The notes below the pieces were generated by a model. The model did no database searches. It saw only the letters and a program-made list of their open reading frames with translations, and had not been told where the DNA came from. From positions 4,473 to 68,472 of IMG/VR virus record IMGVR_UViG_3300043803_000951: 64,000 nt of DNA; one strand, written 5' to 3'. The position numbers and the translations under genes are program-made. This stretch comes from a virus. This document shows positions 4,327-60,489 of this stretch, in pieces; the stretch's first letter is position 1, and each line of letters begins with the position of its first letter.

Positions 4327-4716
4327 TCAATCCTCCGCCAAGTCCTGAAGGACGAGCTTCTGGCAATCCGGCGGCAAGTCGGCAAACCGGATGCGCTTGC
4401 CAAGGTGGTTACGCCCGCCAAGGCGGCAAGGCGGGAAGTCTGCCGGCCCACGGTCGCTTTCCCCATGCTGGCCGAATCCCTGAGGATGGAATGGCTCCGT
4501 GCTCATGCCCGCGTAGGCGAAGCTGTCCGGAGAGTAGCGGGTGCCATCCTTCTGGATCATCGGCTTCAGGTAGACGGCGGTGTAGCGGTCAAACGTGCCG
4601 CCCCTGTTTGGCCCACCGTTATCGTAAAACCTGGCCAGCTTGTTGCGGGTGTTGACGAGGCGGGCGCGGATTGCCATATGGTCGGTTTGCTTTTGGGATT
4701 TGGTTAGAGAGTTCAT
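4327..4716 (-). CDS. Hypothetical early protein
   Basis: YDNGG...DRYTAVY...MSTEPFHPQGFGQHGE...LGKRIRFADLP, phage early-gene-like motifs. Confidence 0.7.
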   Translation of the reverse strand: MNSLTKSQKQTDHMAIRARLVNTRNKLARFYDNGGPNRGGTFDRYTAVYLKPMIQKDGTRYSPDSFAYAGMSTEPFHPQGFGQHGESDRGPADFPPCRLGGRNHLGKRIRFADLPPDCQKLVLQDLAED

Positions 4717-36148: not shown

Positions 36149-37798
36149 ATGTTGAAGATTCACCGCCAAGCTCCCGTAGGCCCACCTGACTCCATGTGGA
36201 AGCCATTGGCTGATGAGCGGGCCGCCAAGATTGCGCTGCTGGAGAAGCGGTTAATGGAGGAGGAAGAATCGGCCCCGCCGCCTTGGCCGACTGAGCGGAC
36301 CATCACCGTCATCCTCACCGTCCACGGGGACAAGCGGTTGCCAATGGCCAAGGAAGCCTACCGGTCCATATTGGCTGCTGGATTCAAGGCTGACCAGATT
36401 CGCATCTGCCTAACCCACCCTGCTGGTGTTGGATACGGGATGACGCTCTCCGCATTCCGGGATTGTGCCTGCGTTGACCAACTAGGCCCCATCGACAACA
36501 ACTCCGCATGGCTCCAATCCTGTGAGCGGGCCGAGTCCTCCCACATCATCATCCTCCACGACGATGACCTGATGAAGCCCGGCCTCGCGGACAAACTGCG
36601 GGAGCGGGATGATTGGGAGGTGGCTTACTGGGATGCGGACCTGATTGGGGATGTCCAATCGTCCGTCCGATACTTCAAGTGCAAGCCGGGAGTCTACAAC
36701 GGGCAGCTAGTCCGGGAGGTCCAGTCCGAAAATGAGCTGACCATCTCAACGATTCAGGGATGCTTTCCGCGCCACATAGCCATCGAAGCCTTCTCCCGTT
36801 TCCAGGGCGAATTCAACCAGCCTGAGTTCCAGTTCCGGCCCGGGATGTGGGTTGGGAATGACTTCCTGATCTGGTGGCTGGCCGGCGGCTCAAGCAAGGT
36901 CTGGATTGTTGGGGAGTCATTCAGTTGCTGCCGTGGTCACACAGGCTCAACAACCGCCATCGGGCTCCAGGATGGAAGGATTGCCCCGATGTATGGTGAG
37001 ATGAGGCGCCGGCTTGGGGCGATCCCCAAGAGGCGGGTCATTTTCGGCCACGCCTTCGGGGAGGTGGGAAAGTTCTGCCGCCACTTTGAATCCTTCAAGA
37101 CCCGCCATCAGGTGGTGTTCTTGTGCCACTCGGCAAGCCAAAGAATCCCATCCAACTCCAGCCGCGTAATCATCCCGGACTCAGGGCTGAAGATTCCACG
37201 GAACCCGGCCGTGTCCGTCTCCAACCACGCCTCGAAGTTCATCTTCCCGCAAGCCTGCAAGGCTGCCTTGGATGGGTTCGATGAGATGATGTGGGTGGAG
37301 ACGGACTGCCAGTTCTCGGGGGACAACTGGGACGATGTGTTGCGCCATGAGCACTCAGGCGCCGGGGATGTGGTTTGCTCCGGGACCCCGGTTATGTGGT
37401 CCACCTTCTACTCCAAGACCAAGACAGCCGCGGCAGCGATTGAATACGCCAGCAACTACCACAGGCTCACTGGCAGGGTTGCCGCCATCGAGGGCACCCT
37501 GAATGACAGTCCGTGTGTTTTCCCCAATGGAGCCTTGTCCTGGTATTCCCGGGAGCTGATGGATGAGTGCTTTGTGGCCCGGATGAAATCGGGGCTGGAG
37601 CAGTTCGCTTCCGGTGACCAGTTCGACCTTGAGTGCGGGAGATACATCTGGAGCCGGTTTGGCGAGAACTCCTTCAAGAAGGTTGGGATTACCCCCTCAT
37701 CCTACTCCGGCTGCGGGGACCACTGGTATAGCCTCAATGACCGCTTGCAAATGCTTTCCAGCGGTAAGATTGTCGCCGTCCATCAGGTCAAGTCATGA
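36149..37798 (+). CDS. Two-domain GT-A fold glycosyltransferase
   Basis: IIILHDDD and WVETDC DxD-like motifs; cluster context. Confidence 0.6.
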   Translation: MLKIHRQAPVGPPDSMWKPLADERAAKIALLEKRLMEEEESAPPPWPTERTITVILTVHGDKRLPMAKEAYRSILAAGFKADQIRICLTHPAGVGYGMTLSAFRDCACVDQLGPIDNNSAWLQSCERAESSHIIILHDDDLMKPGLADKLRERDDWEVAYWDADLIGDVQSSVRYFKCKPGVYNGQLVREVQSENELTISTIQGCFPRHIAIEAFSRFQGEFNQPEFQFRPGMWVGNDFLIWWLAGGSSKVWIVGESFSCCRGHTGSTTAIGLQDGRIAPMYGEMRRRLGAIPKRRVIFGHAFGEVGKFCRHFESFKTRHQVVFLCHSASQRIPSNSSRVIIPDSGLKIPRNPAVSVSNHASKFIFPQACKAALDGFDEMMWVETDCQFSGDNWDDVLRHEHSGAGDVVCSGTPVMWSTFYSKTKTAAAAIEYASNYHRLTGRVAAIEGTLNDSPCVFPNGALSWYSRELMDECFVARMKSGLEQFASGDQFDLECGRYIWSRFGENSFKKVGITPSSYSGCGDHWYSLNDRLQMLSSGKIVAVHQVKS

Positions 37799-47577: not shown

Positions 47578-50500
47578 ATGCCGCAATATCAACTGGTTGA
47601 CAACGAGACGGGCCGCGAACTTCTGGTAGAATCGGATTCCCCGCCAACGGAGGCGGAGGTTTCCAAGCTATTCCAGAACCACGACGCCTTCAAGGTGGCC
47701 ATTGCCGGCCCCAAAGGCTCGGAGGAACGCCGCCGGGTAATGGCGCGGGAGGTGGCTGACCAATCCCGCCAAACCTTCACCGAGGAATCGGGTGGATCAA
47801 CTGCCGGCCCCCTGCTGAGCGGAACAGCATCGCTCGGCCAAAGCCTTTCCGCTGCTGGCACAAAGATTCTCGGTGGCGCAGCTTCCGGATTCGAGATGCT
47901 GAAGGAGGGCCTTGGTGCACCCGAGGGTGGATTTTCGCTTCCGGAGCCGGGCAAGCTACCAAGAACTCCAGCCGAAGTTGAGCAGGACATTCAGGCAAAT
48001 CAGGTTCGCCAGCAGGCCAGAGAGCTTCAGGCCCAAGCTGAGGCGACTTACCCGGTAAACCCGAAATATCCTTGGGCAAATCTTCCCGGTCAGGTTGTTG
48101 GGTCGGTGGCGCAAATGCTGGCGACTGGTCCTGCCAGAATCCCAGCCTACGCCCTGAGCGCATTGGAGGGTGGTATGGAGCAGGCCCGTGAGTCTGGAGC
48201 AACACCGGCCCAGGTCCAAGCCCAAGGACTCGTAGAGGCTGCTACTGGCGCCGTCAGCGAGAAGCTGCTGGGCCTTGCCCCATTCCTGAAGGATGCGGGG
48301 AAGATGACGGCCCGCCAATTTGCCCGTCAGGCCCTCACCCCCACTGCGGGGAAGGTTGCCCTTCAGGAAGCCATCCAAGAGCCCACTGAGGGCATCCTGA
48401 ACCGATTGTCGTCCAAGTATGTGACGGGCGCGAATCCAGATGAGGCTGTGTGGGACCCGCAAACCCTCGCCATGGAAGCGGTTGGGGGTGGGTTAGGTGG
48501 TGCGGGCCTGTCAATCCCCACCCTCGCCGGGGCAAAGATTCAGCGGCAGCGGGATGTAATGGGGCGCCGGGAACTTGGATTGGCTGGCCGTTCCGAGCAG
48601 CAGCTCCAAGCTGAGCTGGAAGCGTTCAACCAAGGAATCCAGCAATCCCAACTGACCGGAGGTGGTGTGGAGCTTGTGCAACAGACGGGTGATCCTTACC
48701 GGAACCAGCTCAACCTGTCCGCCCAGAACGCCCCGCCGCAGTTTCAGATGGTAACGTCTCCGCGGACTGCCCGGGGATTGCTCAGAAGCGAAACCGACTC
48801 AGGGCTTGGAGACTTTGCGCCCCCGGATGGTCGCACCCCCATCGACCAGTTCATTGGCCGGACCCGCCAAGCTGCCGTCCCCAGTGCTGAGGATCGCCGG
48901 GCTGCCCTTGAGGCTGGCCTGACTCTCCCGCAGGATACTGGCAAGTTCGCTTCGGACGAGCCCCAAGTGGCTATCCCTCCCCGCTACGCCCAAGCCCCGC
49001 AGCTTGCCTCCCTCGGCACTACGCCCCGGACGGCAATGACCACCTCCCCGATTGATGAGGCCATCATGGGCGGACGGTTGCAGCGGTCTACTCTTCCCCC
49101 AATCAACCCGCAGCTCCAGCAGCTTCAGGACTTGGCGGAATCCGAGCTGAACGCGATTGAGCGGTTCCCGAACCGGGACACCAACCGCCGGGATTCCCTG
49201 CTTGGGGCAGCCCCGCAGGTGGTCCAGATGCTGGACACCCGAATCAACAACTCCATCGGCAAGGTGAGTGACGCGGAGGTTGGGCGGTTGATGGATTTGC
49301 GGGAACGGCTGGCCAAGTTCTACAACGACCAGACGGCCTACAATGAGCTGACGGCTGAGGCGATTGGGGTTGCCCGCGATACCCGCCGTCCGGCTCCGCA
49401 GATGGCGGCTGGTCTTTCCCAACTGGAACAATCCCGGCAAGCCCAGTTCCCTGCCGGCGGTGCGGCTGTCCAGCCTGAGCAGCCACAATCCATCCAACCC
49501 CAAGGCGACTTGATGGCTCGCCTCCGCGAGGCTCGCCAGATGGACGTTCTCCGCCAACCCTCCCCGATGAGCGCGGCCCAACTGGGGACTGGCCAGCCGG
49601 TGGGTGGGCCTCCCGCAGTGGCGGACCTGACCCCGTTCCTCCAGTTCTATGAGGCGCAGGCGTCTGCCCCGCAGGCTCCTGTTCAGGCAGCACCAGAAGC
49701 TCCCGTAACCCAATCCGCCCCCGTCCGTCGTGGGGTGCGGATGCGGGCCAAGACTTCCCGTTCAATCGGGATGAGTAGAAAGCCCTCGCAAACCATCACC
49801 GGCTCCAATGTGCAAACGGGCACTGAAATGCCGGTGCTCCCCACGGGAGGCGAGGCGCCCATTTCCCGCACGGAATCGAAGCCAAGGCAGATGAGTGATG
49901 AGGAGCTTGCCGCCATGAAGGTGGCAAAGCTGAAGGGCGCCGAGCATCGTGGTGATGGAATCACGTTCGTTCCGGAAAAGTTGATGACTCCGGAGCGGCG
50001 TAAGGCAATGAAGCGCGGTGGCTCACTGATTGAGGTCAAGCCAATGGCTGATGTCACCGGCGTTCAAACCGACCGAGGATACGCCATCTTGGACAGGCGG
50101 TCACGGATTGCATTCAGGGGCAATGAGCCGGTTCAAGCCGAAGCTGTTGACGCCTATGGAATAAAGCCCCCCAAAGGCTACGTTCGCCAAGGTGAACTCT
50201 ACGTTTACCAACCCATTTCCCGCAGCGAACCTGCGGCGGCCCAAGGAGTCGCTACCGAGGGGGTCGGGGTTTCCTCATCCGAGGAGACCCCGGCTTTCGG
50301 GGTTCGTCGCTACGGGGATGCGCTGTTCATCTCCATCGCCGAATACAACCGGCTCCGCCCGCAGATTGATGAGCGGCTGGCTGCCGGGGATGAGGTAGCC
50401 AAGCGGATTGACGACATCGAGGTGAACGCGGAGCAATACGTCCGCTCCTCGGCGGGCTTCGGAGCCCTGACTCCCGAAGGGCAGGAGCAGGCCGTCGGGA

Positions 50501-53500
50501 ACTTCAAGACCAAGCTCTACCAGTCGGCCGCCAAGTGGCTGGCTGGTGGGGAGTTCCAGTTCTCCCCTCCCGTCATCGCCAAGTCCGTCGCCATGGACAT
50601 CGGCAAGAGCGTGGCTGAGAAAGACCGCAAGCGCACCCAGTCGGGTGAAACTTCCGAGGAAGATGGGGAGGAGGTTCGCGGGGACTTTGAGTCCCTCAGT
50701 GAACGGGTGATGCCCAAGCAACCCCTGAAGGCGCCTCCTGCCATCAGGAAGGCCGACCAGGACATTGTGTTGGTAGTTGCGAATGTTCGCCGACAATTCG
50801 GACTAAACGAGGCCCAGATGGCAAGAATCATGGGTGCATACGTTGACCCGGAGATGGAGGCCAATCTGGACGACGAGGAGCTGGGTGTCCTTGAGCGGGT
50901 GCGGCCGATGCTGGCCCGGCTGGAGAATGTGAGGTATTCGGTTGCAGGTGGAATCCAGTTGACCGAGCAAGGCCCGTTCTACTCCCAGCTCACCCGCACA
51001 ATTCAGGGGATGGGGCAGGAGACGATGACGGTGGGGCAGGCTCGCAGCGCCATTGAGAAGGGGGCCAAGAAGGACGAGGTTGCGATGAGCGGTATTTTCA
51101 CCGACCCGCTGAGCCCTCTCTACGGGAAGCAGCCCGGGGATAAGGTGACCAAATCCGAGCTGATTGGCTACGCGCTGGAGCGGCAGGCAAAGGTGGAGGA
51201 TGTGGTGTTGGGTGAGCCCCGTGGGAAAAACCTATCCGGCACATATCAAGACCGAAAAACAGGGGAGTGGGTTGTTTCACAAAATGGACGCGAGGAGAGG
51301 TTTTCTTCACTCAATGAAGCGGCCCGGCGTGGTGATGAGTTGAACCGGATTGCTGATCAGTCCAGGGAGACCAGCTTCTCCTCCTACCAACTCCCCGGCG
51401 CGGACGAGGGGAGCTACCGGGAGATGTTTGTGACGTGGCCTTACACCGGGAAAAGCCTGCGGGTGGATTTAACGCCCGACAACAAGTGGGGTGTTTTTAG
51501 TGGAAAAACATTGCTGGAGAAATACACGGACAAAATCTACGCGGAGCACGCGCTCAAGCATCGTCTAAATTGGCGGGACGGCCATTCGCAATACGCTTCC
51601 ATCGCGAACCCCATCGTCCGCATCCGCCGCAACATCCGCACGGACGCGAACGGGAAGAAGACCTACTTCATCGAGGAGATTCAGGGGCCTCAGAAGGCCA
51701 ACCAAGAGAAGATGCCGCCAGAGCTTCGCAAGCGCATCTACGAGATCGGAATGAAGCGGGCCATCCGGGATGCCGTGGACAGCGGTGCGGACGCGATTGC
51801 TTGGACGACTGGGCAGCAGCAGGCTGACCGGTATGATTTGAGCAAGCAGGTTCTCCACGTCGCGTGGGAGAAGAACGACGACGGGACCTACAACATCAAC
51901 GCCCCTCAGCCCGACGGGAGCCCGGGGGTTTACAAGGAAGACCTGTCGCTGGATCAGGTTGAGGAGCTGGTCGGGAAGGACCTCGCCAAGAAGATTGAGT
52001 CCGGGGAAGGCCGGCAGCAGGAAAAGGACGGCGGCTACCGTAGCTGGAAGATTCTGGAGGGAGTGGACCTGATTGGTGGAGATGGCCTCAGGCGCCTCTA
52101 CGACCAGACCCTCCCCTCCATCGCGAATGATCTCGCCAAGAAGTTTGGGGTGAGGGTTGGGATGGGGGAGATTGCGACGGCTGCTAAATATCAATTCTCG
52201 CCACGAGCCGCCCGCGATGGAACAGGGAAGCCAATCCTGTTGAACGGCGTGCAGGCGTATGTTTTGCAGGACATCGCTTCCGGCGATTATCTCGCAGACA
52301 GGAACCAAAACACCTTCGCGCGAAGACCGCAGGATGGTCAGTTATTCTCAAAGGGTGAAGCTGACTCCATTGCGGACAAGAAGACTTCTGACTTTAAGGC
52401 CAACGTCCACTCCCTGGCAATCCCCGAAGCCATGAAGGCTGCGGCGAAGACTGGCCTGCCGCTGTTCTCCCTCTCCTCCCTCATCCGCGAGCCCATCGGC
52501 CTTGCCCGTGCCCAGCAAGCGGTCGCCCGGTGGAAGCAGGAGAATGGGGTGGAGGGAGCCCTCATCGAGGTGGTGGATGATCCCGAGCTGATGACCCCCG
52601 ACGGGCGGCCGGTCGCGGCGATGGTGAGGACAATCCCCGGGCAACCCCCGGTAATCACCGTCAACGCGGCCCAGATTTCCTCGGAGCAGGAGCTGATCGA
52701 GAAGCTGTGGCATGAGGCCCTCCATCCGGTCTGGGAAGATCAGGGAGTCCAGCGGGCTTGGCAGGAGGTCCTCCAGACCCTTCCCCGTAACGCCATCCAA
52801 GCTGAGCTGGCCCGTGGGTATAGCCCCCTTGAGGCCACGATGGAGGCGGCCATCAACTCCGCGGCTACGCAGGCTGCGAATACGCCCCTGCGGACGGCTT
52901 GGAAGAAGTTCCTTGATGCGGTGTGGGAGGCGATGGGGCGGGTATTTGGGTTCACCACGAAGCCCAAGGATTTCGAGAAGCTGATGGAGGAGGCGCTGCG
53001 GTCGCTGAGCCGGCCGTATAATCAGGAAGGAGAATTGCGCTACTCCGTGGCCAACACCATCGCCATGGTCAGCTCCGCCAAGGCGACCAAGGCAACCCTG
53101 GAAACCTCAGGCGACCCACAGGCTGTGGCGATGATGGGACAGGCAGCCGCCTCCCTGATCAACCCGGCGTTCAGCGACCTGATGAACCGGCTGAGCGTAG
53201 CGGAACCGGGCACCGCGGACGCCACCACCTACACCTTCCTGAAGGCAGCGGACAATATGGCTGCGTCCGGGGCTGCGGTGGTGGAGTGGGCGCAATCCCA
53301 TCAGGACCCAATCCCTGCGTTCACGAACCTGAGCGACCTCCCTACGGGCTGGCGGTCCGTGGTGGGGAATGTGGTGATGGGCGCCCACCTTCAACTGGGC
53401 CAGCAGATGGGGTCCATTGACCGGGCGATTGAGCGGGAATCCGCCAAGCTGGTGGAGGCTGCCGCGGACCTTGAGGATGCGAGCAAGGAGCGGCTGTCTG

Positions 53501-56500
53501 CTGAGGCGGCTGAGACTCAGGCGCTGGACCTACTGGACGGCCTGATGCGGACGATTGTGGTTGAGCGCAAGAAGATTGGCACCTCGTCGGCCACACTCAG
53601 CCGTCAACAGGCAGAGGACCAAGCCAAGGCAATCTTTGGCATCAAGCGCAACAAGCTGTCGGCCCTGACCATTGCCATCCAGACGATGGCGCGGGAGATG
53701 CCGGTGGAAGGGTTCGTCAACAACGAGGCTGCCCTCGCTTGGTTCGATGAGCGTCAGAGCAAGAACCCAATCCTAGGGGACAGCGCGGCGGATGTGGTGA
53801 AGGCTTTCCGGGAGGCCCTGTCCCGTCAGGCCGACCTCACCAAGCGCATCGAGCAAGTCCGGGCCTTCACGCTGGACAGTGTGGATGCGGTGCGGGAGGT
53901 GGGGGAGATTGCCAAGCTGATCGGCAAGAACAAGAAGGCCACCATCAACAACTACGCCAAGCTCCGCAGCGAATACGAGGCTGGGTTCCGTCGGTTCAAG
54001 CTGGCATCCAAGAAAGCCACCGACGCCTCTACGCGCCTTGACGGGCTGCTGGCGGCCAAGGAAGCCCTGAGTGGGCTGATGGCCTCACCTGAGTATCTGG
54101 AGAAGACCAATGACGCCTTCCTGCGCGGCCGGGGCAGCCTCAGCGGGTTGATGAGCGAGGTGAAGAGTGATGGGCGGCCGACCGGGGTGGTGGAGGTCTA
54201 TGGTCCCTCTGCCTACGTGGCGGCCGGAAACCGGGTGGCCAAGGACAAGGACCTCGCGGCTCTCCGTCGCAACTCCACAATTGAGACGTGGGGGAAGAAG
54301 GGGAAGGAGAAGTCCGGCACCATCTACGAGATCGACTACCGACCTGACTTCGCCATCGAGGCCAAGAATGTGGAGGCCATCGACCGGTTGTCCCAAGAAA
54401 TCACGCAGGCCCTGAACGACGAGTCCTCCCCGTTCTACCTGACGGACCCGTTGGCTAGGTCGTCCTACACCCAACTGGGAGCCTACCTTGCCCAGTTTGT
54501 GGCGACCAACCGCTACCTCATCGAGCAGCAGTTGTCGGACACGATGCTGCTGACCGTCCTGAAGGGCGGACGAATCTTCTCCGGTAAGGCGGGAATCCTG
54601 AGTGCGTTCGGGGGCGCCCTCTACACCACCCGAATGAATGCTGCCCGTGCGATTGGTGGGCGGGGTGGGATGGAATGGGAGAAGGCCAACCGGGCATCCG
54701 ACCTCTTCGAGAAGAAGGCCGGCAACGTCCTCAAGGCGACCCGGGTTGAGAACGCAGTGGCCCGACGTAAGGCCATCGAATCCCACGGGCTGAACCCGGA
54801 CAGCCGGGAAGGGATTGCCCAGTGGTCGGCCCATATCTCCTCCGTAATTGGCTCCTTCCAGAACCCGTCGCAGGACCGCCTAAAGGAAGGTGACTATGTG
54901 GGCGGGATGGTGGTGACAAAGGAGGACCTCAAGTCCGCCGAGATTCAGAAGAAGTTCTCCACCGGGGTAGTGGGCGACTTCTCGTCCATGACGGCTGACC
55001 TGAGCGAGGTGGTGAATCCCGAGGAGAAGTTTGGCAGCGGGGATTCCGCCGTCCTGTTCACCCGTGCGGCCGAGGATTACGGGCTGAAGACCCGCCGCCA
55101 GTTCTCCCAATGGGGCCGGCAGTTCAAGGAAGACTGGGCCACCGCATCCGAGAAGGACCTCGAAGCCTTCCGGCTTAATCAGGCTCAGTCGACCGGGGAT
55201 GAACCGGTGCCAATGGTCTGGACTGAGCGCGAGAAGCTGGCCGACCGGGAGATCGAGGGGCCGGTGTATTCCCACCTGACGGAGACGAACCAAGAATACT
55301 CCAGCAAGGCGCCCGCTTCCATCCGCCCGGCTTATGCGCGGCTCCGTAGCGCCATCAAGGCTGGCCGTGGACCCAAGACCGTCGAAGGTATCGGCGAAGC
55401 CATCTCCCAGCTCACGTCGGACGCGGAAGGCAATGCGACCATCGACCCCATCACGGCCAAGGAAGCCTTGCTTGGAGCGATTGATTTGGACGTGAATGCA
55501 ATTGGCAAGGCCATCGGGGAATGGCACCAGTCCACCCTCGGAAACTCCGACCTTCCCGATGTCCTCATCGGCGTCAAGGCGGCCAACGGGGCACTCGCCC
55601 TAGCCCGTGGAAAGATGGTGGCCCCGACGTGGTTCTATGACTACGGCCTCCACGACGACATGGAGCGGGCGGTGTTTGTGGCGCAAGGCAAGCGCATCCT
55701 GCTGATGAAGGTCTACGAGACGATGGGGACCTTCAAGGAAGCGGTCCGCCGGAACCTTGATGAGGCCAATCGGGAGATCGAGGAGAACGCCAAGAAGCGG
55801 AAGGCGAACGGGGATGTGGTTGGCTACGACGCAGCCGAGGCTGAATACGACAAGAAGTCCAAGGCCAAATACCGGGACGGCGGGGAGTTTGCCACCCGGA
55901 AGGGACTCCAGCGTTCCTTCGACACGCTCGAAGCCCTCCAGTCCGAGCTGAAGTCGGTCCTTCAGGTGGCCAATGAGGCAGCGGTGGACCAGCTCAAGGC
56001 AAGGACGATTGGTTCGCTGGCTAGGCTCCAAATCTCCGTGCTGCTGTCCAGCGTATCGTCCATCCTGAACAACATGACCGCGGTGGTTGCTGACCCATGG
56101 CGAACCTGGTCCCAGAGCGAGAGGTTCTTCCTGAAGGTTGGCAAGACCACCAAGGCGGTGAAGAACGCCTTCAAGTTCATGGCCAGCGACATGGTGGCAA
56201 GGCTCCCTGCATCAATCCGCAACAAGCTCACCAAGAAGCGGAAGATGGTGCTGATCTCAACCGTTAGCGACTTCCTGAGAACCATGATGGCGGAGCGGGA
56301 CATGATGGAGCAGACCGGCCAGTTCGAGGAATTCGAGTCCATCAAGGACAAGGTTGCCGCCATCCGGGCCAACCCCCTGTCGTTCGGCCAGTCCACCACC
56401 ATGGAATCCTCCAAGTTCGAGCGGGCCATGAGCTGGCTGTATAGCAAGGCCATCTACGGGGTGGCTGTGGCTGAATGGGTGCGGGACCGGGCTCCCGGAT

Positions 56501-57894
56501 ACTTCGACAAGGTTATCAACCGGGTGCTGGCCGAGGATGCCAAGGAGTTCGAGCTGTGGCTGTCCCCCCATCTGTGGAACTGGGCTCGTAACCAGCCCGG
56601 AGCAACCGTTGAAGAGAAGATCGAGAATGCCCGCAAGTCAGTCATCCGCGGCAGCGATCTTGGAATCAGTGACGAGAACATAGCCTCCATCCGCGACTTC
56701 ATGAGTGCGGCTGGATCGCTGGAGTCGATGGCAATCCGGCTGCTGTCTGACAACGGGGACAAGAAGATGACCACGAAGAAGTCCTCCCTGAGCGATGGCG
56801 AGCTTCAGTCCGTCCAGTATGATGCTGGCCGGAAATACAACGTCCGCGCTTCCTCAACCTCCCCCGACGTGATGAAGGGTGGGCCGGGCATCAAGGGCAC
56901 GTTCAAGAATATCCTCCACACCTTCCTGAGCTGGACTTTCCACCGCATGGGGACGGACGCCAACCAGTTCTTCAAGAAGCGCGGCGGCGGATGGAAGAAG
57001 GAGGTAACGGCTGCATGGGGAGTCGCGATGCTGGTCTTGGCCACATTGCTCCTTGGCGCCATGGTAAAGATTCCGAAGGACATCTGGCGCTGGGTCACAG
57101 GCGATCCCGCCACGACCCCCAATATCCTCCAGGCTGTGGACAGCCCTGAGATGGCCATGCGCTACATGGCGGCATCAACCGCCCCGGTATTCCCGATTGG
57201 TGGTCAGGTCATCGCCGAGATGATGGGCGGGTCTGGTATCTCCAGCCCGCTGGACAACAACGTGCTGGACAACAACCCCCCAGCCCAGTTCCTCGCCTCC
57301 ATGGTCCAGACGGGCCAACGCATCTACCAGACGGGCGACCTCAAGTATCCGCTGGTGGACTTTGCCCGGAAGAACTTCTGGCCCGCCGGACTGGTCCTGA
57401 ACCGGGTAATGGAAGGGGATACCGAAGCCCGGGCTGCCAAGCGGGCTGTCCGGATGGCGGCTGCGGGGATGGAGGTCAGGCCGTCCGGAAGTGGAATTGG
57501 TTCCCGGGAAACTCCCATCACCCCCATCACCCGGAACGCCATCGCAGCCCTCTACGAGGGGGACACCGGGGCCTTCAATACGGCCAGGGAGAAGGCGATT
57601 GCCCACTACGTGGGTCAGGGGAAGACGCCCAAGGAGGCGGCCAAGCGGTTTGATTCCTCGGTGAGTGGGCGGGACCCGCTGCGATCTGTCCTTGGCCGGA
57701 ATCCCACCGAGGAGGAGGAAGCTACTATCCTCCGCCGGCTCAACCCCAGCCAGCGCCGGGCAGTCGGGAAGTCCCGGTCGCTGTTCCGCAAGCCCAAGAA
57801 GATCAGGTTGGGTAGGAGCAAGTCGCGGAAGGTCCGCCTTGGCAGGAAGCGGCCCGCTCGGCGTTCCTTGCGATTGCGGCGAGCTGCCTCTTAG
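47578..57894 (+). CDS. Giant polyvalent internal virion protein (3438 aa)
   Basis: FYSQL..., YFIEEIQG nuclease-like motif, WHEALH zincin motif, RYS/LFS linkers, C-terminal hydrophobic helix and basic tail. Confidence 0.8.
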   Translation: MPQYQLVDNETGRELLVESDSPPTEAEVSKLFQNHDAFKVAIAGPKGSEERRRVMAREVADQSRQTFTEESGGSTAGPLLSGTASLGQSLSAAGTKILGGAASGFEMLKEGLGAPEGGFSLPEPGKLPRTPAEVEQDIQANQVRQQARELQAQAEATYPVNPKYPWANLPGQVVGSVAQMLATGPARIPAYALSALEGGMEQARESGATPAQVQAQGLVEAATGAVSEKLLGLAPFLKDAGKMTARQFARQALTPTAGKVALQEAIQEPTEGILNRLSSKYVTGANPDEAVWDPQTLAMEAVGGGLGGAGLSIPTLAGAKIQRQRDVMGRRELGLAGRSEQQLQAELEAFNQGIQQSQLTGGGVELVQQTGDPYRNQLNLSAQNAPPQFQMVTSPRTARGLLRSETDSGLGDFAPPDGRTPIDQFIGRTRQAAVPSAEDRRAALEAGLTLPQDTGKFASDEPQVAIPPRYAQAPQLASLGTTPRTAMTTSPIDEAIMGGRLQRSTLPPINPQLQQLQDLAESELNAIERFPNRDTNRRDSLLGAAPQVVQMLDTRINNSIGKVSDAEVGRLMDLRERLAKFYNDQTAYNELTAEAIGVARDTRRPAPQMAAGLSQLEQSRQAQFPAGGAAVQPEQPQSIQPQGDLMARLREARQMDVLRQPSPMSAAQLGTGQPVGGPPAVADLTPFLQFYEAQASAPQAPVQAAPEAPVTQSAPVRRGVRMRAKTSRSIGMSRKPSQTITGSNVQTGTEMPVLPTGGEAPISRTESKPRQMSDEELAAMKVAKLKGAEHRGDGITFVPEKLMTPERRKAMKRGGSLIEVKPMADVTGVQTDRGYAILDRRSRIAFRGNEPVQAEAVDAYGIKPPKGYVRQGELYVYQPISRSEPAAAQGVATEGVGVSSSEETPAFGVRRYGDALFISIAEYNRLRPQIDERLAAGDEVAKRIDDIEVNAEQYVRSSAGFGALTPEGQEQAVGNFKTKLYQSAAKWLAGGEFQFSPPVIAKSVAMDIGKSVAEKDRKRTQSGETSEEDGEEVRGDFESLSERVMPKQPLKAPPAIRKADQDIVLVVANVRRQFGLNEAQMARIMGAYVDPEMEANLDDEELGVLERVRPMLARLENVRYSVAGGIQLTEQGPFYSQLTRTIQGMGQETMTVGQARSAIEKGAKKDEVAMSGIFTDPLSPLYGKQPGDKVTKSELIGYALERQAKVEDVVLGEPRGKNLSGTYQDRKTGEWVVSQNGREERFSSLNEAARRGDELNRIADQSRETSFSSYQLPGADEGSYREMFVTWPYTGKSLRVDLTPDNKWGVFSGKTLLEKYTDKIYAEHALKHRLNWRDGHSQYASIANPIVRIRRNIRTDANGKKTYFIEEIQGPQKANQEKMPPELRKRIYEIGMKRAIRDAVDSGADAIAWTTGQQQADRYDLSKQVLHVAWEKNDDGTYNINAPQPDGSPGVYKEDLSLDQVEELVGKDLAKKIESGEGRQQEKDGGYRSWKILEGVDLIGGDGLRRLYDQTLPSIANDLAKKFGVRVGMGEIATAAKYQFSPRAARDGTGKPILLNGVQAYVLQDIASGDYLADRNQNTFARRPQDGQLFSKGEADSIADKKTSDFKANVHSLAIPEAMKAAAKTGLPLFSLSSLIREPIGLARAQQAVARWKQENGVEGALIEVVDDPELMTPDGRPVAAMVRTIPGQPPVITVNAAQISSEQELIEKLWHEALHPVWEDQGVQRAWQEVLQTLPRNAIQAELARGYSPLEATMEAAINSAATQAANTPLRTAWKKFLDAVWEAMGRVFGFTTKPKDFEKLMEEALRSLSRPYNQEGELRYSVANTIAMVSSAKATKATLETSGDPQAVAMMGQAAASLINPAFSDLMNRLSVAEPGTADATTYTFLKAADNMAASGAAVVEWAQSHQDPIPAFTNLSDLPTGWRSVVGNVVMGAHLQLGQQMGSIDRAIERESAKLVEAAADLEDASKERLSAEAAETQALDLLDGLMRTIVVERKKIGTSSATLSRQQAEDQAKAIFGIKRNKLSALTIAIQTMAREMPVEGFVNNEAALAWFDERQSKNPILGDSAADVVKAFREALSRQADLTKRIEQVRAFTLDSVDAVREVGEIAKLIGKNKKATINNYAKLRSEYEAGFRRFKLASKKATDASTRLDGLLAAKEALSGLMASPEYLEKTNDAFLRGRGSLSGLMSEVKSDGRPTGVVEVYGPSAYVAAGNRVAKDKDLAALRRNSTIETWGKKGKEKSGTIYEIDYRPDFAIEAKNVEAIDRLSQEITQALNDESSPFYLTDPLARSSYTQLGAYLAQFVATNRYLIEQQLSDTMLLTVLKGGRIFSGKAGILSAFGGALYTTRMNAARAIGGRGGMEWEKANRASDLFEKKAGNVLKATRVENAVARRKAIESHGLNPDSREGIAQWSAHISSVIGSFQNPSQDRLKEGDYVGGMVVTKEDLKSAEIQKKFSTGVVGDFSSMTADLSEVVNPEEKFGSGDSAVLFTRAAEDYGLKTRRQFSQWGRQFKEDWATASEKDLEAFRLNQAQSTGDEPVPMVWTEREKLADREIEGPVYSHLTETNQEYSSKAPASIRPAYARLRSAIKAGRGPKTVEGIGEAISQLTSDAEGNATIDPITAKEALLGAIDLDVNAIGKAIGEWHQSTLGNSDLPDVLIGVKAANGALALARGKMVAPTWFYDYGLHDDMERAVFVAQGKRILLMKVYETMGTFKEAVRRNLDEANREIEENAKKRKANGDVVGYDAAEAEYDKKSKAKYRDGGEFATRKGLQRSFDTLEALQSELKSVLQVANEAAVDQLKARTIGSLARLQISVLLSSVSSILNNMTAVVADPWRTWSQSERFFLKVGKTTKAVKNAFKFMASDMVARLPASIRNKLTKKRKMVLISTVSDFLRTMMAERDMMEQTGQFEEFESIKDKVAAIRANPLSFGQSTTMESSKFERAMSWLYSKAIYGVAVAEWVRDRAPGYFDKVINRVLAEDAKEFELWLSPHLWNWARNQPGATVEEKIENARKSVIRGSDLGISDENIASIRDFMSAAGSLESMAIRLLSDNGDKKMTTKKSSLSDGELQSVQYDAGRKYNVRASSTSPDVMKGGPGIKGTFKNILHTFLSWTFHRMGTDANQFFKKRGGGWKKEVTAAWGVAMLVLATLLLGAMVKIPKDIWRWVTGDPATTPNILQAVDSPEMAMRYMAASTAPVFPIGGQVIAEMMGGSGISSPLDNNVLDNNPPAQFLASMVQTGQRIYQTGDLKYPLVDFARKNFWPAGLVLNRVMEGDTEARAAKRAVRMAAAGMEVRPSGSGIGSRETPITPITRNAIAALYEGDTGAFNTAREKAIAHYVGQGKTPKEAAKRFDSSVSGRDPLRSVLGRNPTEEEEATILRRLNPSQRRAVGKSRSLFRKPKKIRLGRSKSRKVRLGRKRPARRSLRLRRAAS

Positions 57895-58195
57895 TCAGCT
57901 TCTTGCTGGATAGATGGGAGAACGGGCGGTCCTTCGACTTGCTCGTTCTCCTGATGTATTTGCGGAGCTTGGATAGGTCCGAGAACTCGTAGCCACAACC
58001 CCGCAGGAAGTCGTCCACAACCCAAATTGGCTCGTCCGCCCATTCCGGTTGCTGGGAAATCCAAGAAACAACCCCAACTGGAAGTCCAGACTTATTCGCG
58101 ATCTCCTTCAGGGTCATGGGCTTCCCCCTCCCGCTCCGGGCGCTCATGCGGACTACGGGAGGGGGGAACTCGTTCAGGATGGAGAGGAGGGTCAT
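57803..58195 (-). CDS. HTH (XRE-like) DNA-binding protein
   Basis: MTLKEIANKSGLPVGVVSWI; 3' end overlaps giant gene convergently. Confidence 0.6.
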   Translation of the reverse strand: MTLLSILNEFPPPVVRMSARSGRGKPMTLKEIANKSGLPVGVVSWISQQPEWADEPIWVVDDFLRGCGYEFSDLSKLRKYIRRTSKSKDRPFSHLSSKKLTKRQLAAIARNAERAASCQGGPSATCSYPT

Positions 58196-58260
58196 TTGTG
58201 GTTGGTGGTGGTCTGGTAGCCAATATCGCCGCAATTTTGTGGCTCACTCAACTGTTCGGG

Positions 58261-58575
58261 CTATTCATCCGCGTAGTCCGCACAGTATTTTTCCCACGTT
58301 ATCGGCGTCGCCTTCATGCCTTCGCATCCCGGCAGTCCGCTCGCCACGAGCTTTGCCACCGTGTCGGCGCATTGCTCGTCAGTCGGCACTTTTCCGCACG
58401 GGCCAATTTTCAGTTTCACGCCAGCCTCACAAGGATTGCCCTGCTCATCTTCTCCGAGGCCAAAGACCTCGAAGAGCAGCAGGATGCTTTGTTCGTCCGC
58501 AGCCCAGCGCCAGCCAAGCCCGAACCTGTCAGTGGATCCAACGGCTACGCCGTCGGCGGTTTCAGTGGTATTCAT
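58261..58575 (-). CDS. Cassette 1 hypothetical protein
   Basis: ATG inside attC loop; stop next to the GTT core site. Confidence 0.7.
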   Translation of the reverse strand: MNTTETADGVAVGSTDRFGLGWRWAADEQSILLLFEVFGLGEDEQGNPCEAGVKLKIGPCGKVPTDEQCADTVAKLVASGLPGCEGMKATPITWEKYCADYADE

Positions 58576-58617
58576 AGTTTTTTCTCGGCGTAGCCGTGGC
58601 TCACTTCGGCGTTAGCT
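58519..58617 (+). other. attC-like site A
   Basis: CCCGAAC...GTG(G)ATCCA(A)CGGCTACGCCG / CGGCGTAGCCGTGGCTCAC...GTTAGCT. Confidence 0.8.
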
Positions 58618-58968
58618 GCCTTGCGGTGCGTCCATCACCCACACGATGTCAGACAGTCGCACGTCCACGCCACGCTCGGCGGGATAGGCGATTCGGTTGG
58701 CCTCTGGCTGTTCGTCCATCGGCTTGATGTCGAGATGCACCCATTCCTTGTTCAGCACTTTCGCAAATGAGAAGTCTATCACTTCCCCTGTGCGAAGCTT
58801 CATGGCGTAGTCGAAAGGGTCTTGGCACGCCTTGGCGAGAGCCGCACTTCCGGTCAGGATTTCGATTAGTCTGCCTTCCTCATTTTCATACGGTTCACCG
58901 GCAGCTAACAAGTCGCTGGAGGCAACAGCGCCCCCGCCTTCTGTTTTCGTTTGGTCTTGGTTGTTCAT
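58612..58968 (-). CDS. Cassette 2 hypothetical protein
   Basis: DPFDYAMKLRTGEVI...RGVDVRLSDIVWVMDAP; TAA stop lies in the core site. Confidence 0.75.
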   Translation of the reverse strand: MNNQDQTKTEGGGAVASSDLLAAGEPYENEEGRLIEILTGSAALAKACQDPFDYAMKLRTGEVIDFSFAKVLNKEWVHLDIKPMDEQPEANRIAYPAERGVDVRLSDIVWVMDAPQGS

Positions 58969-59028
58969 ATATTTTTGGTGTTGTCGGAGTCTTCCGCCGG
59001 GGCGCTGTGCCTCAGCTTGTCGTTAGGT
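58903..59028 (+). other. attC-like site B
   Basis: AGCTAAC...TG(G)AGGCA(A)CAGCGCCCC / GGGGCGCTGTGCCTCA...GTTAGGT. Confidence 0.85.
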
Positions 59029-59306
59029 GTCTCGCCGTAGATGCACGCAAAGTTTCCATCCGTCTCGACGCTATCCACGGTTGCGCCTTCCCATCCGCCG
59101 GAAGCGGTGATCGTGATGCCGTGTCGCAGCCGCACACAGACGCCATCCCACCATCCCTTGTCTGGTTCTTGGTTTCGGTCATACATTTCGCCCCATTCAG
59201 GGTTTGGCGTTTTCCAGTGCTTGCAGTCCCGACACCTAACCAGGGCGGTGCAGCGAATGACGCCGGGCGCATCTGGTTTGCAATCAGGAATCTTGGGTGG
59301 CGTCAT
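58965..59306 (-). CDS. Cassette 3 Cys-rich hypothetical protein
   Basis: CRDCKHW...GVC...FAC; ATGA overlaps inside attC sites at both ends. Confidence 0.7.
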   Translation of the reverse strand: MTPPKIPDCKPDAPGVIRCTALVRCRDCKHWKTPNPEWGEMYDRNQEPDKGWWDGVCVRLRHGITITASGGWEGATVDSVETDGNFACIYGETPNDKLRHSAPAEDSDNTKNI

Positions 59307-59327
59307 CGCTGACCTTTCTCGTTCGGC
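59234..59327 (+). other. attC-like site C
   Basis: ACCTAAC...GGT(G)CAGCGA(A)TGACGCC / GGCGTCATCGCTGACC...GTTCGGC. Confidence 0.85.
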
Positions 59328-59842
59328 TTCAAGAACGCGATCCAATGCGTCTGCGCCTGCTTGCCAGACTTGTGACCATAGAGCGGCAACATCGGTGTGA
59401 GCTTCAAGATTTCCGAGACGGGGTTTTCCGTGGCCGTCCACTTAAAGATGAGCGTGCCGCCCGGCTTGAGCACGCGGAAGCCCTCCGCGAATCCGGCGGC
59501 AATCATCTTCCGCCAGTCACCATCGAGCCACCCGTATTTCATCGCGAGGAATCCGATTTTTCCCGACCGCTCGAAGTGCGGCGGGTCGAACACGACATGC
59601 AGGAAGGTTTCATCCTCGAACGGCAGGGCAGTGAAGTCCGCGAGGATGTCCGGGTCGGTTTCCGTCCATTCTACCGTCCCGCGCTTCGGGCGGTTCATCG
59701 CGTGGCGTTCGCGGCGACGGTCAGAGAACACGGCCCGAGGGTCTTCTTTGTTGAACCACATCATGCGCGGGCCGCAGCACATATCCAGCACTGAAGCCGA
59801 ACCATGCGTTGCACCGGACGCCGTGGGCGATTCCGCCATCAT
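59303..59842 (-). CDS. Cassette 4: SAM-dependent amino-methyltransferase (probable DNA m6A/m4C)
   Basis: VLDMCCGPRMMWF, VVFDPPH, RVLKPGGTLIFKW. Confidence 0.85.
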   Translation of the reverse strand: MMAESPTASGATHGSASVLDMCCGPRMMWFNKEDPRAVFSDRRRERHAMNRPKRGTVEWTETDPDILADFTALPFEDETFLHVVFDPPHFERSGKIGFLAMKYGWLDGDWRKMIAAGFAEGFRVLKPGGTLIFKWTATENPVSEILKLTPMLPLYGHKSGKQAQTHWIAFLKPNEKGQR

Positions 59843-60489
59843 AGCATGATCCTCTCATACACCCCTGCCGTGGCCCGAAGATCATTCCGAAGATAATCCA
59901 GCGCACTTTCCGGGGCTTCCCGGTAAATACGGGCGAAGTGCGCCCCATTCCCGGTCTTCCCAGGAATCCCCAGCGCCTTGCAGACCGCATCCAGCCCATT
60001 CCCGGAGCGTTCCCGCCCCATCACCACCTCCTCCATGAGGTCAACGAAGTTGTCGTTCCAGTAGGAGCGACCACGAAACCGGTCAAGGAATCGCCCGGTG
60101 GGAATCCCGTGGACCGCACAGCGGAAGCGGATGAAGGGGAGGTCGAAGCCCTTGATGTTGAACCCACCCACCGCAATCTGCTGCTGTAGATACACGTTCA
60201 ACTGGCTGACAATCTTCCGCAGCGTGTCCTTCTCGTCATCCCCGTGGGCCAGCAGCAGGTCGCCATTAGGCTTACGGACGCCGGCTGCGATGACGAACCC
60301 CGTCAGCGGACTTAGGGCTGCGTCGCGGATGCGGGCTTCCTTCTTCTCCTCGATGGATGCCTTGATCTTCTCGGGGTCCTTGAGGTTCGCGGCGGCCTTG
60401 AACTCCGGCATGGAGGCGGCCAGTTGATCCTCGGGGAGCGGGGAGGTTTCGATGTCGAAGACGGCGTAGTCTGAGTTTGCTTGTTCCAT
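59839..60489 (-). CDS. DEDD 3'-5' exonuclease (PolB exonuclease-like)
   Basis: FDIET, GFNIKGFDLPFI, LDAVCKALG, YLRND. Confidence 0.85.
   Translation of the reverse strand: MEQANSDYAVFDIETSPLPEDQLAASMPEFKAAANLKDPEKIKASIEEKKEARIRDAALSPLTGFVIAAGVRKPNGDLLLAHGDDEKDTLRKIVSQLNVYLQQQIAVGGFNIKGFDLPFIRFRCAVHGIPTGRFLDRFRGRSYWNDNFVDLMEEVVMGRERSGNGLDAVCKALGIPGKTGNGAHFARIYREAPESALDYLRNDLRATAGVYERIML

What the first reader, a model, noticed from the sequence alone, without database searches (positions are those of the whole stretch)
58239..59842. Phage-borne integron cassette array with inverted genes whose ends are encoded inside attC sites
Seen: three complete attC-like sites (58519-58617, 58903-59028, 59234-59327) with AAC...GTT cores and paired arms in which the left arm has two unpaired extra bases. 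A right-arm remnant lies at 58239-58260 and a left-arm remnant at 59796-59825. Every unit has complementary ends, the signature of an excisable cassette: GTTCGGGCT/AGCCCGAAC (9 bp), GTTAGCTGCC/GGCAGCTAAC (10), GTTAGGTGTC/GACACCTAAC (10), GTTCGGCTTCA/TGAAGCCGAAC (11). Known: in canonical arrays the gene usually lies on the attC top strand, and integron elements are regarded as mostly chromosomal or plasmid-borne. Here the plus strand is the top strand but all four genes are on the minus strand and are phage-type accessory genes. Inference: a phage gene-shuffling system that uses an IntI-type recombinase in trans to swap genes inside an early operon.
Basis: partly seen in the sequence, partly recalled or inferred. 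Interest (0 to 1): 0.92.

Follow-up and report, generated by a model that had tools for sequence, protein, structure and literature searches.

The report
Reversed integron cassettes in lake phage
A lake-water phage keeps four small genes in mobile cassettes of the bacterial integron type, built back to front so that the genes read through the recombination hairpins; phage cassette arrays are already published, so this is a well-supported new example with an unusual layout.

Summary
A covariance model built only from 7 clinical class 1 integron attC sites finds the three sites and nothing else comparable in the window: 58903-59028 (30.6 bits), 58519-58617 (21.6) and 59234-59327 (17.4, filters off), all on the + strand. 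Hits in the published attC cluster of phage TJE1 score 17.7-36.8 with the same model.

The site geometry is canonical: AAC/GTT cores, 5-6 nt unpaired spacer, 3 bp, extra base, 6 bp, extra T, stem. All four units have exact 9-11 bp complementary ends. All four genes lie on the attC bottom strand, with starts and stops inside the sites.

Cassette 3 recurs at 86.5% nucleotide identity in another metagenome contig, with homology ending at the GTT cores. Its family sits in real cassette arrays, always reversed, and its end boxes covary. The methyltransferase is a reversed cassette in two other viral contigs.

The 68.5-kb phage record encodes no integron integrase, so any recombinase must act in trans. 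That step is inferred.

Phage attC clusters are published (Qi et al. 2023), and earlier unchecked notes of this scan describe reversed phage arrays on other DNA. I found no paper describing the all-reversed layout with sites inside coding sequence. Interest is moderate.

The parts
58239..58262 (+). Right half of an upstream attC (attC0): L' box, spacer and R' core GTT (58254-58256), which marks the start of cassette 1.
   Evidence: Shares GTGGCTCACT with the right arm of attC1. No left-arm partner within 400 nt (best score 7.0). The R' box is complementary to 58517-58525.
58255..58611 (+). Cassette 1 (TT of R'0 to G of R'1): ORF1 plus attC1.
   Evidence: 9-bp complementary ends. ORF1 lies wholly inside this unit.
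58261..58575 (-). ORF1, 104 aa, unknown function. Its start codon is in the attC1 loop.
   Evidence: No Pfam or PHROG family. Only 2 homologues in 5.8 billion proteins, at 92% and 87% identity.
58519..58617 (+). attC1 (99 nt), top strand on +.
   Evidence: R1 21.6 bits, E 0.0033 for the window. Scanner score 14.5, spacer 5/5, 19 pairs, 2 extra bases on the left arm. Fold z -3.63. 72% similar to an attC in L047.
58612..59022 (+). Cassette 2: ORF2 plus attC2.
   Evidence: 10-bp complementary ends. The ORF2 stop TAA is the reverse of TTA in the R' box GTTAGC.
58612..58968 (-). ORF2, 118 aa, a phage-type small protein family ending in ..WVMDAPxGS. Its N-terminal ~25 residues are encoded by the attC2 left arm and loop.
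   Evidence: In 15 viral loci it occurs without a model hit. In L028 it lies directly after the exonuclease.
58903..59028 (+). attC2 (126 nt).
   Evidence: R1 30.6 bits, E 1.5e-5. Scanner score 15.5, 20 pairs, 2 extra bases on the left arm. Fold z -4.25.
59023..59321 (+). Cassette 3: ORF3 core plus attC3.
   Evidence: 86.5% nt identity to L036 over 59022-59325 only, with unrelated flanks. 10-bp complementary ends.
58965..59306 (-). ORF3, 113 aa, Cys-rich core CRDCKHW...GGWxGATVDSVETDxNFxC. Its start lies in the attC3 stem. Its last ~19 codons run out of its own cassette through the attC2 right arm. ATGA overlaps occur at both ends.
59234..59327 (+). attC3 (94 nt), the weakest of the three.
   Evidence: R1 17.4 bits, found only with filters off. 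Scanner score 13.0. Fold z -1.20. Homologous attC in L051 with compensatory stem changes.
59322..59829 (+). Cassette 4, cut short inside its attC: methyltransferase core plus the attC4 left half (R'' box 59792-59802, spacer, 3 bp, extra G, 6 bp, extra A, stem).
   Evidence: 11-bp complementary ends. Left-arm geometry read. No convincing right arm.
59303..59842 (-). ORF4, 179 aa, phage-type DNA methyltransferase. Its conserved core (about residues 15-172) sits between the two R boxes.
   Evidence: phrog_954 E 2.6e-63. 252 GenBank phage records match about residues 10-172. It is a reversed cassette in L060 and L062.
59839..60489 (-). Flanking phage backbone gene: PolB-like 3'-5' exonuclease. Its stop overlaps the ORF4 start.
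   Evidence: PF10108 E 2.5e-13. 82% nt identity to relative L001, which diverges right after the stop codon.
57803..58195 (-). Flanking gene downstream of the array, 130 aa, unknown function.
   Evidence: weak phrog_935 only. No viral relatives.

Best explanation
The stretch 58239-59842 is a genuine integron-type cassette array without an integrase (a CALIN). It lies in the replication and recombination operon of a temperate lake-water phage. It holds three complete attC sites, a right half site at its left end and a left half site at its right end, which bound four cassettes.

The + strand is the attC top strand. The phage's coding strand (-) is therefore the recombinogenic bottom strand, and every gene is reversed: its attC lies ahead of it, not behind it.

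Shown:
- the site architecture;
- the end complementarity;
- the reversed orientation;
- translation starts and stops inside the sites;
- recurrence of cassette 3, and of the methyltransferase in cassette form, elsewhere.

Inferred:
- The cassettes were made and moved by an integron integrase of a host. It binds the folded bottom strand and cuts at the AAC that pairs with G/TT of R'.
- The array reached the phage as a block or by successive insertions during infection or lysogeny.
- The outer sites were later cut by illegitimate recombination.
- The genes are expressed by read-through of the phage operon with ATGA-type coupling.
- The inner cassettes could still be excised if the phage meets an IntI.
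For: 1. Independent model. R1 was trained on 7 clinical attCs only.
- It hits the three sites on + at 30.6, 21.6 and 17.4 bits. The next best in 6 kb is 7.2 bits.
- Held-out true attCs score 25.1 and 30.6 bits.
- The TJE1 sites, within the published CALIN from which two attCs were assayed, score 36.8, 29.9 and 17.7 bits.
- All 12 hits at E up to 1 in 94 kb of plasmid DNA lie in the cassette arrays downstream of intI1.

2. Canonical geometry as described in passages of Nivina et al. 2016 (PMC5027507).
- Spacer of 5-6 nt, a 6-bp stem between the extra bases, and a T as the last extra base on the bottom strand.
- Lengths of 94-126 nt fall within the 57-141 bp range.

3. Polarity control. At 13 cassette junctions of five class 1 arrays with genes on +, the left arm has more extra bases in 12 and ties in 1.

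4. Four of 4 units have exact 9-11 bp complementary ends.

5. Cassette 3 as a unit is shared with L036 from G of one R' core to the next. That span includes attC3 but not attC2.

6. The ORF3 family lies in real arrays. L047 has 4 model hits and L049, L044 and L036 have 1 each, all on the strand opposite the gene.

7. Covarying end boxes. Of 12 loci with both flanks, 6 keep a GTT...AAC inverted repeat. It occurs in three sequence versions with matched changes on both sides: GTTAGGTGTC, GTTCGGCT and GTTGGGCT.

8. Stem covariation over 13 environmental sites.
- 89.4% of cells are paired.
- 16 of 22 pairs change on both sides.
- 0 of 500 shuffles reach this.
- Slid controls give 24-37% paired.
- Caveat: the alignment was fitted to the model.

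9. The methyltransferase is flanked by opposite-strand attCs in L060 (34.5 and 18.8 bits) and L062 (34.5 and 17.6 bits).

10. Contigs of two further runs bridge both junctions of the array with the phage backbone at 100% identity (records 3, 5, 8, 12).
Against: - No integron integrase is present. TIGR02249 finds nothing in the 68.5-kb record, which is 91% complete. The phage's own tyrosine recombinase scores 17.8 bits against a cut-off of 265. The host is unknown, so the enzyme is inferred.
- The first extra base on the bottom strand is C in all three sites, where it is 'usually a G'. Among the 13 environmental sites it is C in 6, G in 5 and T in 2.
- attC3 is weak. It scores 17.4 bits, is found only with filters off, and folds no better than shuffles.
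- Both outer sites are halves, so cassette 4 cannot leave by attC x attC. The array may be a fossil.
- ORF2 and the methyltransferase have close plain relatives without attC in other phages. L021 is 92.7% nt identical over 58611-58896. L059 is 97.3% identical over 59325-59797. None of the 15 ORF2 viral loci has a model hit.
- My model is home-made from 7 sites, with rough E-values. IntegronFinder and HattCI were not available.
- The genome search with the same model on the own record returned no match, unlike cmsearch. I cannot explain that difference.
Confidence: 0.8

Rival explanations
1. Fossil array. The cassettes entered the phage once and are now ordinary, fixed phage genes. The attC sites persist only because they have become coding sequence and coupling signals, and they no longer recombine.
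For: - Both outer sites are halves.
- Every start and stop lies inside a site, with ATGA overlaps, so selection on the proteins could hold the sequence.
- No IntI in the record.
- Plain, attC-less versions of ORF2 and the methyltransferase exist. This fits domestication by loss of attC, as suggested in the discussion of Loot et al. (bioRxiv 10.1101/2022.09.11.507474, passages).
Against: - End complementarity of 9-11 bp has no role in the integrated double-stranded form, yet it is exact in 4 of 4 units.
- The geometry of all three sites is intact.
- The end boxes covary across ORF3 homologues.
Confidence: 0.3
2. A phage-owned system. The sites are used by a phage recombinase that is not IntI, for example the phage's Xer-like integrase. 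They only resemble attC.
For: - The phage encodes a 342-aa tyrosine recombinase (PF00589, E 5.3e-10), nearest to XerC-type models.
- Unchecked notes of this scan describe integron-like phage systems with their own recombinase.
Against: - The sites fit a model trained on class 1 attCs as well as the sites of the published TJE1 cluster do.
- The same cassette family sits in an array of ordinary long attC repeats in L047.
- The integrase lies about 58 kb from the array beside an excisionase-type HTH gene, as for prophage integration.
Confidence: 0.06
3. RNA or expression signals only. The hairpins are terminators, attenuators or translational couplers of the operon, and their likeness to attC is chance.
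For: - They lie in the mRNA sense strand and hold the starts and stops.
- Close relatives of ORF2 and the methyltransferase do without them.
Against: - This does not explain the complementary ends across each gene.
- It does not explain the asymmetric extra bases with a conserved A (T on the bottom strand) in 13 of 13 sites.
- It does not explain movement of gene plus hairpin as a unit.
- It does not explain occurrence in cassette arrays.
Confidence: 0.03
4. Assembly chimera of a bacterial integron fragment with a phage contig.
For: The record is a metagenome assembly. The array ends in half sites.
Against: - Contigs from runs X6 and X7, which are not flagged as possible sources, bridge both junctions with no differences.
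- The array genes overlap the flanking phage exonuclease by ATGA.
- Composition is even across the region.
Confidence: 0.02

Closest known systems
Clusters of attC sites lacking an integrase (CALINs) in phage genomes: Qi, Rajabal, Ghaly, Tetu and Gillings 2023, Front Microbiol (PMC9892861; abstract and sections 2.1 and 3.4 read), for example Tetrasphaera phage TJE1
   Same: - attC-bounded cassettes inside a phage with no IntI.
- A DNA methyltransferase among the cargo. The paper reports five methyltransferase cassettes.
- Sites score in the same range with my model: TJE1 17.7-36.8 bits, this window 17.4-30.6 bits.
   Different: - In TJE1 the three sites and the three genes are on the same strand, the usual layout. 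Here all four genes are on the opposite strand.
- Here gene starts and stops lie inside the sites and the R boxes are coding sequence.
- The paper's text has no passage on reversed genes.
Cassettes of bacterial integrons (class 1 mobile integrons; sedentary chromosomal integrons)
   Same: - AAC/GTT cores, spacer, extra bases and variable loop.
- The R'' box of each cassette is complementary to the start of that cassette.
- The same geometry is seen in attCs of plasmid R46 and four other plasmids.
   Different: - No IntI, attI or Pc.
- The genes are reversed. In bacteria, cassettes with their own promoter, such as toxin-antitoxin cassettes, are noted as a distinct type (Richard et al. 2024, PMC13108822, passage). 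That such cassettes are often reversed is my recollection, not a call.
- The first extra base is C, not G.
Cassette insertion outside integrons at attG (5'-GWT-3') sites: Loot et al., bioRxiv 10.1101/2022.09.11.507474 (passages read)
   Same: It offers a route by which an IntI could place cassettes in a phage genome. It also proposes later domestication by loss of the attC.
   Different: A single attG insertion leaves a whole attC at one end and none at the other. Here both ends are half sites, so at least one further, non-IntI event is needed.

Membership tests
attC site (integron cassette recombination site) | Conserved AAC ... GTT triplets within R''/R' boxes | tested here: met
   Present in all 3 sites. 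Model positions 5-7 and 54-56 are matched.
attC site (integron cassette recombination site) | Imperfect hairpin with an unpaired central spacer of about 5-6 nt on each arm; total length 57-141 bp | tested here: met
   Spacers 5/5, 5/5 and 6/6. Lengths 99, 126 and 94 nt. Criteria from Nivina 2016 passages.
attC site (integron cassette recombination site) | [quoted passage not shown] | tested here: met
   Two extra bases on the left (top-strand) arm in 3 of 3 sites. The model alignment gives 3 bp, extra base, 6 bp, extra A, which is T on the bottom strand.
attC site (integron cassette recombination site) | First extra-helical base of the bottom strand usually G | tested here: not met
   It is C in 3 of 3 sites. 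This is a tendency, not a rule. Among 13 environmental sites the bottom-strand base is C in 6, G in 5 and T in 2.
attC site (integron cassette recombination site) | Recognised by an attC covariance model (IntegronFinder or HattCI+Infernal) | tested here: inconclusive
   The published models were not on hand. A home-made model from 7 class 1 attCs finds all three sites at 30.6, 21.6 and 17.4 bits. True held-out sites and the TJE1 cluster sites score 17.7-36.8 bits.
attC site (integron cassette recombination site) | Recombined by an integron integrase as a folded bottom strand | not testable with these tools
   Needs a conjugation assay as in Qi et al. 2023.
Integron gene cassette | The R'' box of a cassette's attC is complementary to the first bases of the same cassette (circular permutation signature) | tested here: met
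   9, 10, 10 and 11 bp exact in 4 of 4 units.
Integron gene cassette | Gene plus its attC occurs as a unit in unrelated contexts, with breakpoints at the cores | tested here: met
   - Cassette 3 versus L036: homology covers 59022-59325 only.
- ORF3 family in the arrays of L047 and L049.
- The methyltransferase is in cassette form in L060 and L062.
- Not shown for cassette 1.
Integron gene cassette | Gene on the attC top strand with the attC downstream (typical, not defining) | tested here: not met
   All 4 genes are on the bottom strand. The polarity rule was checked on 13 real junctions.
CALIN (cluster of attC sites lacking an integron integrase) | Two or more attC sites close together with no IntI nearby | tested here: met
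   3 complete sites within 0.8 kb. No TIGR02249 match in the 68.5-kb record. Definitions from Cury 2016 and Qi 2023 passages.
Complete integron | intI gene with attI and Pc next to the array | tested here: not met
   No IntI. The only tyrosine recombinase scores 17.8 bits against a cut-off of 265 and lies about 58 kb away. attI and Pc were not searched.

The most novel reading that the evidence does not exclude
Phages keep a distinct, back-to-front class of integron cassette. In it the attC precedes the gene, the phage's sense strand is the recombinogenic strand, and both R boxes and part of the hairpin are coding sequence. A move then changes the protein's tail, which is read from whichever attC lies next. 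Such cassettes would form a shared pool between phage operons and bacterial integrons. In a bacterial array they would sit antisense to Pc and stay silent. The same phage gene families (the methyltransferase, ORF2) exist in near-identical plain and cassette forms, so this pool could show how cassettes are born or lost.
Probability: 0.35. Interest if true: 0.8.

Novelty: new variant of a known kind. Interest (0 to 1): 0.58.

Why it matters
Integron cassettes are a main route by which bacteria trade accessory genes, and how cassettes arise is unsolved. This locus adds a clean, internally controlled case of a phage that carries them.

It has three features I did not find in print (searches; text search of Qi et al.):
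- Every gene is reversed relative to its attC.
- The recombination boxes lie inside conserved coding sequence and covary between the two ends of the gene.
- A gene can borrow its last codons from the neighbour's site.

Two cargo genes are typical phage genes that also exist 93-97% identical without attC in other lake phages. Those pairs are material for asking how cassettes are made or domesticated.

If the layout is general in phages, integron-finding pipelines that expect a gene followed by its attC would mis-assign the cargo.

Tried and rejected
- Relatives of ORF1, ORF3 and the left flanking gene in viral contigs: none.
- Relatives of the ORF3 family and of ORF1 in genome contigs: none. 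No host could therefore be named.
- tblastn of ORF2 and ORF3 against 50,697 GenBank phage records: no match.
- Pfam and PHROGs on ORF1-3: nothing.
- Protein atlas for ORF2 and ORF3: best scores 0.88-0.89, below the level that counts. The nearest clusters are mostly viral, which is a lead only.
- The genome search with model R1 on the own record: 16 candidates scored, no match. cmsearch on the window finds the sites. I treat the former as a limit of that tool's first look.
- Sequencing runs: no RNA holder listed.
- Read laying on contigs of four runs: no joints, no circles, no deletion variants. Contigs drop rare variants, so this says nothing about excision.
- I considered that the left half site and the right half site might be two halves of one attC, from a circle opened in its loop. 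Rejected: the arms are not complementary, and the left remnant matches the right arm of attC1 instead.
- I considered de novo birth of the R'' boxes of cassettes 2 and 4 from phage genes. The window's methyltransferase ends resemble the cassette form in L060. They differ from L059 by synonymous codons. Allele mosaicism by homologous recombination therefore explains the pattern without de novo birth.
- The 7-nt inverted repeats around plain ORF2 genes overlap AGCT/CTAG palindromes. I dropped them as not significant.
- A weaker scanner hit at 37202-37314 (score 10.5) is not supported by R1.
- A first alignment that included the long GES attC was misaligned and not used.
- One search was an empty script.
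Full report
**Context**

The window is bases 4473-68472 of a 68,472-bp IMG/VR virus record that CheckV rates 91% complete. It encodes:
- a large terminase, a DnaB-type helicase and a replication initiator;
- a 3438-aa protein that ends at 57894;
- a tyrosine integrase next to an HTH_17 excisionase-type gene, just upstream of and overlapping the window start.

It is therefore a temperate tailed phage. Runs that hold the stretch are lake-water metagenomes. The finding lies between a PolB-like exonuclease gene (59839-60489, PF10108) and a small unknown gene (57803-58195). All of these genes are on the minus strand.

The four pairs of complementary ends are exact: 9, 10, 10 and 11 bp.

My structure scanner gives three hits of score 11 or more in the 64 kb. 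They are exactly the three sites, each with a 5-6 nt spacer, 16-20 pairs and two extra bases on the left arm. None of six shuffles gave such a hit.

Bottom-strand folds of attC1 and attC2 beat all 200 shuffles. attC3 does not (z -1.2).

**Independent attC model**

No published attC model was on hand, so I made one from real sites.
- I fetched plasmid R46 and four other plasmids with class 1 integrons.
- I located their attCs at the cassette junctions.
- I aligned seven short ones and built model R1 with the canonical structure.

Results with R1:
- Whole window, both strands, E up to 10: two hits, 58903-59028 + (30.6 bits) and 58519-58617 + (21.6 bits).
- Filters off on 6 kb: the third is 59234-59327 + (17.4 bits), and the next is 7.2 bits.
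- Held-out attCs (arr-3, GES) score 25.1 and 30.6 bits.
- The three hits in phage TJE1 (36.8, 29.9 and 17.7 bits) lie in the attC cluster described by Qi et al., who assayed two attCs from it.
- All 12 hits at E up to 1 in 94 kb of plasmid DNA lie in the cassette arrays downstream of intI1.

**Geometry and orientation**

The model alignments give, for each site: R'' box, spacer, 3 bp, one extra base, 6 bp, one extra A, then the stem. This matches passages of Nivina et al. 2016:
- a 6-bp stem between them;
- a conserved T last;
- spacers of 5-6 nt.

The one departure is that the first extra base is C on the bottom strand, where G is usual.

The complementary ends are symmetric under strand reversal, so they cannot set the orientation. 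Three other things do:
- At 13 junctions of real arrays with genes on +, the left arm has more extra bases in 12 and ties in 1. Here the excess is on the left arm of the + strand.
- R1 hits only the + strand.
- The unit shared with L036 contains attC3 and not attC2.

So + is the top strand, and all four genes are reversed.

**Genes and sites are interleaved**

- ORF1 starts in the attC1 loop.
- ORF2 stops with the TAA that is the reverse of TTA in the R' box of attC1, and it starts in the attC2 loop.
- ORF3 starts in the attC3 stem. It crosses its own R'' box (residues VRC) and its cassette's first bases (residues TPN). It then runs 19 codons into attC2.
- The methyltransferase ends 19 nt inside attC3 and starts in the attC4 left half.
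- ATGA overlaps link the exonuclease, ORF4, ORF3 and ORF2.

**Evidence from elsewhere: ORF3**

ORF3 has 27 homologues. They share only the core, while both tails vary. Seventeen metagenome loci encode relatives.
- L047, a 4.1-kb contig, is a plain cassette array. It has long repeated attCs and genes in the usual sense. The ORF3 homologue and its neighbour are reversed among them.
- R1 hits L047 four times and L049, L044 and L036 once each, always on the strand opposite the ORF3 homologue.
- Of the 17 loci, 14 show the C-terminal motif and 3 (L041-L043) do not. Of those 14, 12 have both flanks.
- Of the 12 loci with both flanks, 6 keep a GTT...AAC inverted repeat at the same two places in the protein. 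It occurs in three versions with matched changes.
- L037 and L038 keep a decayed repeat without the cores. L039, L040, L046 and L048 keep none. L037/L038 and L039/L040 are duplicate pairs.
- L036 shares 86.5% nt identity with the window over 59022-59325 only.
- attC1 is 72% similar to an attC in L047, and L051 holds an attC homologous to attC3 with compensatory stem changes.
- Over 13 environmental sites, 89.4% of cells pair and 16 of 22 pairs change on both sides. That alignment was fitted to the model.

**The phage-type cargo**

The methyltransferase (phrog_954) belongs to a family found in 252 GenBank phage records, which match about residues 10-172.
- In L060 and L062 it is flanked by opposite-strand attCs.
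- In L059 a copy 97.3% identical over 59325-59797 has no attC. Its ends differ by synonymous codons.

ORF2 ends in GS in all 24 aligned relatives.
- Four proteins share the attC-encoded N-terminus.
- None of the 15 viral loci with ORF2 relatives has a model hit.
- L021 matches only 58611-58896.

Both genes therefore circulate in cassette and plain forms.

L001 is the closest relative phage found by the exonuclease search. It diverges right after the exonuclease stop codon.

**What is not shown**

- No IntI is encoded and the host is unknown.
- No recombination was tested.
- Both outer sites are halves.
- The array is real DNA, not a chimera: contigs of two further runs bridge both junctions.

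**Comparison and verdict**

Qi et al. 2023 described 17 phage attC clusters, five methyltransferase cassettes, and IntI1 recombination of five of six tested phage attCs. In their phage TJE1 the genes and sites share a strand.

Earlier unchecked notes of this scan report reversed phage arrays on other DNA. I found no paper on that layout.

The locus is a member of the known kind in an undescribed layout. It is well supported structurally, and its activity is inferred.

Noticed in passing
L047:1-4095: A metagenome contig that is a cassette array. It has at least six attC sites, including a homogeneous ~120-nt type. Most genes are in the usual sense, and two neighbouring cassettes (the ORF3 homologue and a 127-aa ORF) are reversed, with shorter attCs of a different type.
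   Followed up: partly
L059:2380-3100 and run X13 contig laid on window 59328-59785: A methyltransferase core 97-98% identical to the window's but without attC. The last conserved residues (HWIAFLKP) are kept with different codons, so the ends have a separate history from the core (a mosaic allele).
   Followed up: partly
L051:4001-4934: A broken ORF3 homologue (in-frame stop after ...CIYR) is followed by an attC homologous to the window's attC3, with compensatory changes in the upper stem. The start of a further similar site lies at the contig end.
   Followed up: no
window 37202-37314: An AAC..GTT hairpin with two extra bases on the left arm (scanner score 10.5) lies inside the glycosyltransferase region. 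The attC model does not support it.
   Followed up: partly
window 59960-59985: A weak partner (score 9.5) for the attC4 left arm lies inside the conserved exonuclease gene, with no GTT after it. This is probably chance.
   Followed up: partly
L028:3274-4600: In a distant relative the ORF2 homologue follows the exonuclease directly. An intergenic hairpin (4509-4587) precedes the replication genes. The attC model gives no hit there.
   Followed up: partly
window 47578-57894: A single 3438-aa open reading frame ends just before the array and converges on it. It was not analysed.
   Followed up: no
L062:2120-3100: A 34.9-kb viral contig carries its own small reversed array: two attC hits, a decayed site with the R'' box GCGCCTAAC, the methyltransferase and one further small gene.
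   Followed up: partly
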